A DNA stretch of 56,111 nucleotides, counting the filler, from Squatina squatina (lineage: Eukaryota), in the NCBI GenBank assembly GCA_031763465.1. It is 3 parts of 3 records of this genome, joined end to end, with 100 filler letters (N's around TTAATTAATTAA, not from the genome) between each part and the next. Parts side by side here need not be neighbours in the genome. Positions count along the whole stretch, not along the records: positions 26,468 to 39,627 come from JARFOE010000051.1; 2 more parts are not named here. One strand, written 5' to 3'. The notes under the pieces were generated by a model, which did not search any database, was not told where the DNA came from, and was given only the letters and a program-made list of their open reading frames with translations. Shown here piece by piece: positions 26,468 to 30,024 of the stretch (position 1 is its first letter; each line of letters begins with the position of its first letter). Position numbers and translations under genes: made by a program.

Positions 26468-27020
26468 AAACGGGCAGTGCAGGATTAACTTCTTCCATCT
26501 CGGCAACTTTACCAGAACAACCACCTCACACTCTCAGCCTTGCAGCCTCTGTTCCAGGCCAGACTGATGATGACCTGTGACAATTTACTGTGGAGAACTG
26601 CTTCAGATACTGCAAGGTTACAGCATGATCCTTTGGAAACCCAACAAAACAATGAGAATTCAAGCTTGGTTAAACGAAACAGCTACTAACTTGAATCGTA
26701 CCTTAATATATGGCCCTTTACATAGCGCCCTTTGTAATCTTCAACAGCATGGAGGGAAAGCCTGGGTTTGAAGTAAAACCTATATATCTGCCTGAAGACT
26801 TAATCTAACTGGATTGTCTGGTCTTGGCTTCATACTGACAGGTCTTCCCAATACCAAGATGATAAATCTTTAATGAAACTATTTTTGGGCTCTTGGAATT
26901 TCCAATGGCCTGAGGCAGAGGGGATTTAATTCCTGGAATGCAACCAACAAAAATTGAAAAATATTTCTTTTATAGTAGACTCAACACGGACTAGCCAAGC
27001 ATCAGGCAGCGACAGGATAT

Positions 27021-27089
27021 CCACCAGCAGAGTGAAGAGTCAAGTATAGCAAGGGGGATGGCAGCCAGCAGCACTACATCATCCTGATT
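27021..27089 (-). CDS. TMEM87B: TMEM87-family exon, alternative copy b, followed by a U12-type AT donor
   Basis: 69 bp, long pyrimidine tract ..TTTCTTAG|AAT..TGGTGG|ATATCCTGTC; NQDDVVLLAAIPLAILDSSLCWW resembles the recalled TMEM87 segment IPLAFLDTALCWW; A versus B assignment is tentative. Confidence 0.85.
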
Positions 27090-27479
27090 CTAAGAAACAG
27101 AAAGACAGAGAGAGTACACAAGAGTGGGAGGGAAAAAAAGCATCACATACAATAAGCTAGCAAACAGTAGGGAGGAATCTGGTGTCTCTTTGGGAACAGC
27201 CCTTTAGATCGCAACAAGATCTCAGTATTTGACTGTAGCCTCAAGTTTGCCAAGTACGCCAGTGCTGTCACTAGGATCTCATTAAAGCATAATGGTGTGT
27301 TCTCTGCAGTTTCTGTGTTGTGCTAACATGAAATGAGAACAGCCTGCAGCAGCGCAGTCACAGATTTTGCCTTTCTAAAATTGTATTGTGTCTTTTTTTT
27401 TTAAGTTGCCTCACCGATGGTCAGAGGCCCATCACTGGTTGTTGTAGTGGTGACAGCAGTTCACAGTATCCCAAGATAA

Positions 27480-28260
27480 ATATGGCCAAGGAAAATCAGT
27501 CAACCCGTCTAAGTTCATCTATCTGAGAAGATTCTACACCTCTTCCAAGTGTAGCACCTAATGTTTGCTTAAATGATTCCACTGTTTGCCCTCACTACTC
27601 TACCTGGAAGCTAAAGAAAGAAAAACTTGCATTTATACAGTCCCTTTCACGACCTCAGGATGTCCCAAATGGCTTTACAGCCAATGAAGTACTTTTGAAG
27701 TGTGGTTGCTGTTGTAATGTAGGAAATGCAGCAGCCAATTTGCACACAGCAAGCTCCCACAAACAGCATTGTGATAATGACCAAATAATCTGATTAAGTT
27801 CATTCAATGTATTTAACACTCTTTGTATAAAAGAGTTTCCTGCCTTTATTAGTTTGAACCAATCTCCCCTGATCTTATCCTCTTCTGGATTTAGCTTTAT
27901 CACACCCTTTACTATCTTGCAAACCTCCAAGATCAACTGCCTATATTGCTTGAATGTCTCTCGTTGTCCAGAACTGTAGACAATATTCAAGGTGTGGTCA
28001 AGAGTAGTATGAGATATAGTTTCAGCAGGACTTCCTTGGACTTGGACTCCACTGTTTGGGCTGTTTTCAACTGTTTCAACTTCTTTACCCAGAGAGTGGT
28101 TAAAATAAAGTCCTTGCTACCACAGTAGTGGAAGCGAATAGGGTTATGCTGATAGGGTTAGATGAAGTAGGGTGGGAGCAGGCTTATGCAGAGCATAAAC
28201 ACTGGCACAGACCAGTTGGGCCGAATGGCCTGTTTCTGTGCTGTAAGTGCTATGTAGTAT
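27480..28260. mobile_element. Cluster of CR1-type remnants (old minus-strand copy interrupted by a SINE; plus-strand 3' end at ~28080-28260)
   Basis: NFFTQRVVK motif and GGGCCGAATGGCCTGTTTCTGTGCTGTAA tail on plus; IRGDWFKL..FIQRVLNTLN and YSSGQ motifs on minus. Confidence 0.65.
27612..27795 (-). mobile_element. Deu-domain SINE 3' part
   Basis: AAAGAAAAACTTGCATTTATACAG..TTACAGCCAATGAAGTACTTTTGAAGTGTGG..GCAGCCAATTTGCACACAGCAAG, shared with the 12817 copy. Confidence 0.8.
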
Positions 28261-28929
28261 AGTTCAGCATTCTGTCAAGTGCTGCTCTGCAATAATTGGA
28301 CAGGTCAAGTGGAGTCTACCAAGGTCCCTAGAATGGGTCCTTTTCAGGATGGCAGGCAGTGCCTAGTGGGGTGCCGNNNNNNNNNNNNNNNNNNNNNNNN
28401 NNNNNNNNNNNNNNNNNNNNNNNNNNNNNNNNNNNNNNNNNNNNNNNNNNNNNNNNNNNNNNNNNNNNNNNNNNNNCTGGGGGCCAGTCCCAGAAAGCAT
28501 GTCAATATTTGCAAGGGAGGCCCAACACAGAAAAGTCTGAAACCCAGCTTTTATTTCTGCCATACACAAGGGAAAACGAGGGCAGGTAATGGTGTCAGTT
28601 CCACTTCCTACTCAGCCTGTGTACAGGAGTGTTGCACGTCTCTCCATTTTGTCCAAATTTACTGGATAATTTAGAACTGAATCATTGGTAAAAGCTCAGG
28701 TTTTGCAATCAGCATTAAGCAAGGAAGCAGATCAGACTTTGCACATTTAGACGCTGGAGTGACACTCTGTTTAATGAGTGGGTTTGCGCCAAATCATTGT
28801 GCAGTGTACAAGATACGTCGCAAATATAATTAAATAACTCTGAACAAACGACAACATAAAATCTCTCAAAACCCACCAATAGTCAGTAAGAGACCCAAGG
28901 GAGGGGAGGGGGAGGGAGAAAAAGGATAT

Positions 28930-29001
28930 CCACCATACAATACAGGAGTCTATTAACGCGAGAGAAATCTCACAGATGGTCATGGCTGCCACAGGATGCT
29001 C
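28930..29001 (-). CDS. TMEM87B: TMEM87-family exon, alternative copy a, followed by a consensus U12-type AT donor
   Basis: 72 bp, branch point AACTAAC (29026-20), CCCTCTTTAG|GAG..TGGTGG|ATATCCTTTT; EHPVAAMTICEISLALIDSCIVWW resembles the recalled TMEM87B segment IILAVIDSIFVWF. Confidence 0.83.
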
Positions 29002-30024
29002 CTAAAGAGGGACATCAATGTTAGTTAACATAACTAGTACTTTAAGCTGGAGGTATTCTATATCGCATATCCTAAACAAGGAGTTTGTTTTCTTCCTCCT
29101 GCTCAAGGGAGCAACACTGCTCCATCAAACGCAAGCTCCTATTATATGCCTGTTAAGTCGCCCGGGAGGGTCTTGGGGTTACTTTGGTGCTGGCTCTTGA
29201 CTCCAGAAACTGCAGACAAAACATAGAAAAGATACAGCACAGAAGGGGGCCATTCAGCCCATCGTGTCTGCGACTAACCTCCAGACTTCCACTGCATCAG
29301 CAGAAAAGTGGAACAGCGGAGTCGGGGCACTTGTCTGTTACACTGGGAGAGGGAAGCTAGTACAAATGACCCAGTATACTGCCAGATACATCATCTTCTG
29401 AGGTGTAGTGTATCCATTTTTACTGAAGACACATTTCTAACTATACAAGTTATTCAGCAGTGCACAAAATCCTATTGAGCTTCTGCACTTACTTCTTGCA
29501 GTGCAGTTTGCTGTCTAGATTTAGCAATTTTCCATTAAACAGATCCAAACAACAGATCTCCAGCCCAATTATCATTAATCTTGATAATCAGTTCATCGGC
29601 AGAGCTTGGATGAGCTGCACCAGACATACATTCATCTGGGCTCGTACACAGCAGTAAAACAAACATCACACACCCGAGTTTGAAAAAAAAGTTAGAGTCA
29701 AATGAGCGTTTGGGCCTAAAAGTATTTAAATGGCGAATTTTTTTTCAGTTCCTTTTTTAAGGGGGTTGTAGGGAGTTGTAAAGAGTGCAAAAGTTTATTT
29801 CTTAAGCTTAAAAGAGGATTAACATGGCCAAACGTGAGGTTAGCAGATTTGNNNNNNNNNNNNNNNNNNNNNNNNNNNNNNNNNNNNNNNNNNNNNNNNN
29901 NNNNNNNNNNNNNNNNNNNNNNNNNNNNNNNNNNNNNNNNNNNNNNNNNNNACCATTTTTGGAAAGTACCAGGGTGGGCATGGGGAGGGATTAATCCTAC
30001 ACCTCAGCAATTTTCCTCTAGAAG

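What the first reader, a model, noticed from the sequence alone, without database searches (positions are those of the whole stretch)
27011..29026. Tandem-duplicated TMEM87 exons, each with a U2 acceptor but a U12 (AT-AC type) donor: mutually exclusive splicing by spliceosome incompatibility
Seen: two paralogous minus-strand exons, a (28930-29001, EHPVAAMTICEISLALIDSCIVWW) and b (27021-27089, NQDDVVLLAAIPLAILDSSLCWW). Both end TGGTGG|ATATCCT, and both are preceded by a pyrimidine tract and AG. Established: ATATCCT is the minor-spliceosome 5' site. An intron with a U12 donor and a U2 acceptor, as between a and b, is not normally excised, and this is the mechanism behind JNK mutually exclusive exons. 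I recall the same design being noted for human TMEM87A/B. Both exons are multiples of 3, so frame does not enforce exclusivity. Inference: the gene swaps one transmembrane segment of its GOST/7TM domain, and the switch predates the shark-bony vertebrate split. A 100-N gap lies between the exons, so their linkage depends on the scaffolding.
Basis: partly seen in the sequence, partly recalled or inferred. Interest (0 to 1): 0.85.

Follow-up and report, generated by a model that had tools for sequence, protein, structure and literature searches.

The report
Known TMEM87 either-or exons, in shark
A shark gene for the Golgi membrane protein TMEM87 carries two alternative versions of one small exon that are used one at a time, most likely because the intron between them mixes the signals of the cell's two splicing machines, a design already published for the mouse and human TMEM87 genes.

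Summary
Real, but already described. Exon a (28930-29001, 72 nt) and exon b (27021-27089, 69 nt) each follow a U2-type AG and end TGGTGG|ATATCCT. In 4 of 4 laid runs guessed to be RNA, exon a is spliced at exactly these ends; no GT fits the junction. Contig ends and depth arithmetic indicate that exon b joins the same neighbours. Ten of 10 listed species pairs, from sawshark to turtles, are identical except for the a/b swap, and none of 174 proteins has both. The layout is published for mouse Tmem87a/b (PMC6717393, PMC8329584), and this scan found it before in a ray (e1-8033692). The window is stitched from separate scaffolds and lacks both flanking exons, so the AC acceptor was not seen. The swap covers a luminal loop and about two thirds of helix TM5. 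One loose end: the gene is not the TMEM87A orthologue. It is TMEM87B or an unnamed third paralogue; this is unresolved.

The parts
29002..29030 (-). U2-type acceptor of exon a (AG; 14 of 20 pyrimidines; CTAAC/TTAAC branch-like words; no U12 branch site)
   Evidence: RNA contigs leave the window sequence here
28930..29001 (-). alternative exon a, 72 nt, 24 aa
   Evidence: identical to the segment in sawshark isoforms P0136-P0138; spliced in 4 of 4 laid runs
28921..28929 (-). U12-type AT donor after exon a (ATATCCTTT)
   Evidence: same 12-mer as the mouse Tmem87a minor-intron 5' site; junction seen
27090..28929 (-). hybrid intron (U12 donor, U2 acceptor), 1,840 positions including a 100-N gap at 28377-28476
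   Evidence: no U12 branch-site match with at most 1 mismatch anywhere in it
27090..27155 (-). long pyrimidine tract and AG acceptor of exon b (51 of 66 C/T, against 36 of 66 before exon a)
27021..27089 (-). alternative exon b, 69 nt, 23 aa
   Evidence: 22 residues match human TMEM87A 356-377; identical to ray isoforms P0055 and P0141; covered by contigs in 3 of 4 laid runs
27012..27020 (-). U12-type AT donor after exon b (ATATCCTGT, off consensus at +8)
   Evidence: two contigs leave the window sequence at 27019
26368..26467 (.). artificial scaffold linker; the TMEM87 scaffold (26468-39627) ends here, 553 bases after exon b, before the shared downstream exon

Best explanation
This is a pair of duplicated, mutually exclusive exons in a shark TMEM87 gene, each with a major-spliceosome acceptor and a minor-spliceosome AT donor, and the two are likely kept apart because the hybrid intron between them cannot be excised by either spliceosome. 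The upstream U2 donor picks acceptor a or b (shown for a, inferred for b). The chosen exon's AT donor is then joined to one shared downstream exon (shown for a, inferred for b), presumably through a U12 branch site and AC acceptor that lie outside the window. The protein gets one of two versions of the luminal TM4-TM5 loop and of the first ~21 residues of TM5. Both keep the Asp and Trp that contact a bound phospholipid in human TMEM87A; only b has a proline in the helix and the Cys equivalent to C375. An effect on the lipid-facing TM5/TM6 opening is inferred and untested.
For: Splice signals at both exon ends. Exon a spliced at exact ends in 4 of 4 laid runs from 3 studies; the junction has a 2-nt AT ambiguity and no GT at any shift. 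The X15 exon-a contig (126 nt) ends with 30-nt overlaps on both sides, as one arm of an assembly bubble would. X15 depth fits a second contig over 27019-27090 only (predicted 1.87, observed 1.87). X16 and X17 contigs leave exon b at 27019 with the same 22 loose letters in number. 10 of 10 listed species pairs differ only by the swap; 0 of 174 proteins have both segments. No U12 branch site before either acceptor (best match 3 mismatches). The same layout, with no exon 11-11a reads, is published for mouse Tmem87b; AT donors and U12 branch sites are listed for mouse and human TMEM87A and B. Helix mapping.
Against: The downstream acceptor and both flanking exons are not in the window. The letters joined to exon b were not printed, so its junctions are inferred. 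No DNA contig was laid across the 100-N gap. The runs are only guessed to be RNA and come from related organisms, as contigs. Database isoforms are gene models that might omit rare a+b transcripts. The fold model is weak over the exon (pLDDT about 60). Nobody has mutated the hybrid intron in a TMEM87 gene in the papers I saw.
Confidence: 0.9

Rival explanations
1. The exons are exclusive, but the main lock is something else (competing RNA pairings, splicing factors, or removal of a+b products), and the U12/U2 mismatch is incidental.
For: The intron before exon b is about 90% conserved over 200 bases in relatives' contigs, which suggests regulatory elements. An a+b product would add a membrane helix and probably misfold (inference).
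Against: Frame and decay are excluded: a+b is in frame without a stop. The intron holds at least 1,740 sequenced bases, far above the <50-base steric limit quoted in PMC5740500. The region before and including exon b folds no better than shuffles (z +1.63; long-range pairing was not tested). Regulation chooses which exon is used but is not needed to forbid both.
Confidence: 0.06
2. The two exons belong to different gene copies or haplotypes and were put side by side by scaffolding across the 100-N gap.
For: A gap of unknown size separates them; the assembly is very fragmented and the window is a concatenation.
Against: Isoform pairs with identical flanks in 10 of 10 listed species; both arms in one run; the a-then-b order matches mammalian TMEM87B, where the b-type exon lies in the intron after the a-type exon; no linker lies between them.
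Confidence: 0.02
3. Exon b is a decayed or merely cryptic copy in this shark.
For: Its donor is off consensus at +8; one of 4 runs (X22) shows no exon b cover and two show it attached to upstream intron; most shark models list only a.
Against: Exon b is more conserved than exon a: 18-19 of 23 residues against 11-16 of 24 in the six bony-vertebrate pairs, and 22-23 of 23 in sharks and rays.
Confidence: 0.02

Closest known systems
Mouse Tmem87b exons 11/11a and Tmem87a (Olthof et al. 2019, PMC6717393; review PMC8329584); human TMEM87B exon pair listed in a supplement of PMC5740500
   Same: Same gene family, same exon position, U2 acceptors with AT-type U12 donors, a-type exon first and b-type exon inside the minor intron, never both.
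   Different: Cartilaginous fish; exon sizes 72/69 nt against 72/72 in mouse Tmem87b; the gene groups apart from TMEM87A and its orthology to TMEM87B is untested; tissue pattern unknown.
Vertebrate JNK (MAPK8/9) exons 6a/6b with the U2-U12 hybrid intron (Chang et al. 2007, PMC1874599)
   Same: Hybrid intron with U12 5' site and U2 3' site; richer pyrimidine tract before the second exon (51 of 66 here, 50 of 66 in JNK2).
   Different: Unrelated protein; Nova-type YCAY words are scarce here (1 in the tract), and mouse Tmem87b was reported not to be a Nova2 target.
Human TMEM87A structure (PDB 8HSI/8CTJ; PMC11239671, PMC9711517)
   Same: GOST seven-helix protein; exon b matches residues 356-377, which include TM5 D371, C375 and W376 that contact a phospholipid.
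   Different: Solved structures carry the b-type exon only; no a-type match in PDB. The shark gene is a paralogue (590 bits against 681 for the horn-shark TMEM87A-type protein).

Membership tests
U2/U12-incompatibility mutually exclusive exons (JNK type) | Two tandem homologous exons of similar length | tested here: met
   72 and 69 nt, 7 of 23 residues identical, shared end; adjacency rests on a 100-N gap
U2/U12-incompatibility mutually exclusive exons (JNK type) | U12 5' site after each exon | tested here: met
   ATATCCTTT and ATATCCTGT; donor a used; donor b use inferred
U2/U12-incompatibility mutually exclusive exons (JNK type) | U2-type 3' site, without U12 branch site, before each exon | tested here: met
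   AG, pyrimidine tracts, best TCCTTAAC match 3 mismatches
U2/U12-incompatibility mutually exclusive exons (JNK type) | Shared downstream U12 branch site and acceptor | not testable with these tools
   scaffold ends 553 bases after exon b; no genome held; present in mouse and human TMEM87A/B
U2/U12-incompatibility mutually exclusive exons (JNK type) | Transcripts carry one exon or the other, never both | tested here: met
   10 of 10 pairs swap, 0 of 174 proteins with both; bubble-like contig ends. Gene models and contigs only, so rare a+b forms could be missed
U2/U12-incompatibility mutually exclusive exons (JNK type) | Exclusivity depends on the mismatch of splice sites | not testable with these tools
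   needs a minigene; frame and steric explanations excluded
TMEM87 (GOST 7TM) family | Exons sit in full-length proteins with PF06814 and PF21901 | tested here: met
TMEM87A orthologue | Groups with, and is the closest shark match to, human TMEM87A | tested here: not met
   590 against 681 bits (two different shark species); separate clades with support 100 in a quick midpoint-rooted tree of 30 rows
TMEM87B orthologue | Groups with mammalian TMEM87B; shared synteny | tested here: inconclusive
   no full-length TMEM87B obtained; exon b is 14 of 22 identical to both human b-type exons (by eye); nearest Atlas clusters are auto-named TMEM87B; no bird or mammal among 35 hits to a lizard orthologue's luminal domain

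The most novel reading that the evidence does not exclude
The gene is a third, undescribed TMEM87 paralogue (the clade labelled 'TMEM87A-like' or zgc:162698) kept in sharks, rays, chimaera, ray-finned fishes, caecilians, lizards, snakes and turtles and lost in birds and mammals. The U2/U12 exon lock would then be older than the duplications that made all three paralogues and be kept in each. The strongly conserved b exon, with its proline and cysteine, would reshape the lipid-binding TM5/TM6 opening.
Probability: 0.45. Interest if true: 0.3.

Novelty: new member of a known kind. Interest (0 to 1): 0.15.

Why it matters
It shows that one of the few known spliceosome-incompatibility switches has been kept in TMEM87 genes across jawed vertebrates and predates the split of the paralogues. 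It also points to an untested protein question: solved TMEM87A structures have the b-type helix only, so the a/b swap at the lipid portal is a natural experiment on a protein whose function (channel or cargo chaperone) is disputed. The splicing mechanism itself is not new.

Tried and rejected
No whole genome is held. Run search: no RNA holder listed on record, best share 0.15; the runs laid are guessed RNA. One search was swamped by repeats, so exon-b loose ends were not printed; X22 showed no exon-b cover, which proves nothing. The upstream and downstream exons were sought by tblastn and by two 12-mers and not found in the window. A GT donor four bases inside the exon ends (GTGGAT) is rejected for exon a by the junction. 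Pfam does not hit the lone exons, and exon a has no PDB hit. Local RNA folding gave nothing. The careful tree did not finish; the quick one was used, without TMEM87B or an outgroup. The search of protein representatives was unavailable, which leaves B versus third paralogue open. Synteny with neighbouring genes in the window was dropped because of the linkers. Paper searches with no result: tmem87 + minor intron + shark, zgc 162698, TMEM87C; the library lacks most subscription papers. An Atlas look-up of the EBF-like exon gave no usable hit.

Full report
Observation. Each ends TGGTGG and is followed by ATATCCT: ATATCCTTT after a, ATATCCTGT after b. ATATCCT occurs at 9 of 101,828 strand positions, so two hits at exactly these ends are not chance (about 5e-9, naive). 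Both acceptors are AG with pyrimidine tracts (14 and 18 of 20). The best match to the U12 branch consensus in 80 bases upstream has 3 mismatches in each case, and no match with at most 1 mismatch lies in the a-b intron or after b. The exons share 7 of 23 residues and 34 of 69 bases.

The window is not one locus. It has 44 N + TTAATTAATTAA + 44 N linkers at 26368-26467 and 39628-39727 and many other gaps. The TMEM87 scaffold is 26468-39627, with 553 bases after exon b and 10,626 before exon a. tblastn of 24 shark and ray proteins found only a and b, no other TMEM87 exon (the printed output was cut after P0019). The shared U12 acceptor therefore cannot be checked here, and no genome is held. The a-b adjacency crosses a 100-N gap that I did not bridge with DNA.

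Identity. Exon b matches human TMEM87A residues 356-377 in PDB (E 0.0008). Exon a finds 10 cartilaginous-fish TMEM87 proteins among 12 candidates and is identical to the segment in three sawshark (Pristiophorus) isoforms; exon b is identical to two ray isoforms. The source is thus a shark-like fish, closest among these to the sawshark.

Splicing evidence. I laid 4 of the 10 listed runs guessed to be RNA (3 studies; Logan contigs of related organisms). In 4 of 4, one contig covers 28928-29002 and continues into non-window sequence on both sides. These read as the upstream exon (ending ...LRVTV) and the downstream exon (IFISLSQTMK) of TMEM87 (translation by eye). The downstream exon begins with AT, so the cut is ambiguous by 2 bases, but no shift gives GT; only the cut before ATATCCT gives a known donor. 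In X15 the contig is 126 nt and ends with 30-nt overlaps on both sides: 29+1 upstream and 6+2+22 downstream, where 6 is the end shared by a and b. With 31-letter words (recalled for Logan) this is one arm of a bubble. The X15 depth bins fit a second contig over 27019-27090 only (implied depth 20.2; next bin predicted 1.87, observed 1.87). X16 and X17 have contigs that leave exon b at 27019 with 22 loose letters, the same number as for exon a, though these contigs start in the intron before b. The exon-b loose letters were not printed, so its junctions are inferred. X22 showed no exon-b cover.

Exclusivity and conservation. Ten of 10 species pairs that I listed (sawshark, three rays, gar, a Danio, a lizard, three turtles) are identical except for a 22/21-residue swap (pairs were picked because both forms were in hand). 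Among all 174 proteins fetched, 137 scored a-type, 23 b-type, 14 did not match the pattern and 0 had two segments. The 14 are 3 whale-shark models lacking the segment, 10 a-type and 1 b-type by eye. These are gene models, not experiments. Exon b is the more conserved: 18-19 of 23 residues in bony vertebrates against 11-16 of 24 for a. Joint inclusion would stay in frame without a stop and the intron is at least 1,740 bases, so neither decay nor steric crowding explains exclusivity.

Mechanism. Shown: both signal sets, splicing of a through the AT donor, either-or protein forms. Inferred: splicing of b, the downstream U12 branch/AC acceptor, and incompatibility as the cause, which follows from the JNK2 work (PMC1874599, passages read). 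As in JNK2, the tract before the second exon is the richer one (51 of 66 C/T against 36 of 66). In a modest model of the sawshark a isoform (mean pLDDT 66, about 60 over the exon) the exon, residues 403-426, covers a short loop and the first 21 of 34 residues of the fifth helix, 406-439. By seven-helix topology that loop is luminal (inference). In human TMEM87A, TM5 D371, C375 and W376 contact a bound phospholipid at the TM5/TM6 gap (PMC11239671, passages). By the alignment, D371 and the WW are kept in both exons, C375 is Cys in b and Val in a, and b alone has the proline in all 10 pairs. A functional effect is untested.

What is known. PMC6717393 (section 11, passages and supplement rows) reports mouse Tmem87b exons 11/11a as mutually exclusive around a minor intron, both 72 bp, with no 11-11a reads and 11a dominant in cortex. 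It lists Tmem87a among genes with the same skipping class, and gives AT donors and U12 branch sites for mouse and human TMEM87A and B; the mouse Tmem87a donor 12-mer equals that of exon a here. PMC8329584 (section 7 part 1) sets TMEM87a/b beside JNK. PMC5740500 does not name TMEM87 in its main text and counts five U2/U12 cases (its Appendix figure S18 was not seen), but a supplement lists the human TMEM87B a-type and b-type pair. PMC9711517 (passages) has no mention of isoforms or splicing. This scan noted the same design in a ray before (e1-8033692). A search for tmem87 + minor intron + shark found no paper.

Which paralogue. The sawshark orthologue scores 590 bits against human TMEM87A even as its b isoform, while a horn-shark protein with an a-type exon scores 681. 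A quick tree of 30 chosen proteins, with the alternative segment removed, gives two clades with support 100: horn shark plus teleost TMEM87A-type proteins, and this gene's orthologues from chimaera, sharks, rays, gar and teleosts (zgc:162698), caecilians, turtles, tuatara and squamates (midpoint root, no TMEM87B, no outgroup). So it is not TMEM87A. For a third paralogue: source names are mostly 'TMEM87A-like' or Zgc:162698; no bird or mammal among 35 hits from 1,103 candidates to a lizard luminal domain (weak, since that search also missed the fish and amphibian orthologues); exon sizes 72/69 rather than 72/72. For TMEM87B: a few sources use that name, the nearest Atlas clusters are auto-named TMEM87B, and the LVLLA stretch of bony-vertebrate b exons matches human TMEM87B. 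Exon b is 14 of 22 identical to both human b-type exons (by eye). Unresolved; searches for zgc 162698 and TMEM87C found no paper. Either way the TMEM87A-type a exons score closer to exon a than to exon b (65-66 against 46-48), so the exon duplication is older than the gene duplication, which is older than the shark/bony-fish split.

Verdict. A real and well-supported example of a published mechanism in a gene family where it is already published. What is added is depth of conservation, the stronger constraint on exon b, and a possible third paralogue. Interest 0.15.

Noticed in passing
window 26368-26467 and 39628-39727: Artificial linkers (44 N, TTAATTAATTAA, 44 N) join unrelated scaffolds; gene order across them means nothing.
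   Followed up: yes
window 52025-53754 (-): Exons of a helicase with AAA_12 domain hits (E 8e-22 and 5e-10); ZGRF1-like by recall.
   Followed up: partly
window 25290-25500 and 25910-26100 (-): Two Ser/Pro-rich exons that look like the C-terminal part of an EBF/COE transcription factor (name recalled; no PDB, Pfam or Atlas hit).
   Followed up: partly
window 17030-17150 (-): U1-type zinc-finger exon (weak zf-U1 hit, E 0.009), matrin-3/RBM20-like by recall.
   Followed up: partly
window 11050-11900 (-): Broken reading frames resembling a Harbinger/HARBI1-type transposase (recalled, untested).
   Followed up: no
window 27019-27301: Contigs in X16 and X17 carry about 200 bases of the intron before exon b (about 90% conserved) plus exon b, then leave at the donor: either a half-spliced intermediate or a transcript that retains the unspliceable hybrid intron.
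   Followed up: partly
proteins P0001, P0150 and nine cyprinid models (P0079 and others): Database gene models stumble at this AT donor: read-through giving ISF (the translation of ATATCCTTT) in whale shark and gar, or a shifted junction in cyprinids. This is indirect sign that the same donor exists there.
   Followed up: partly
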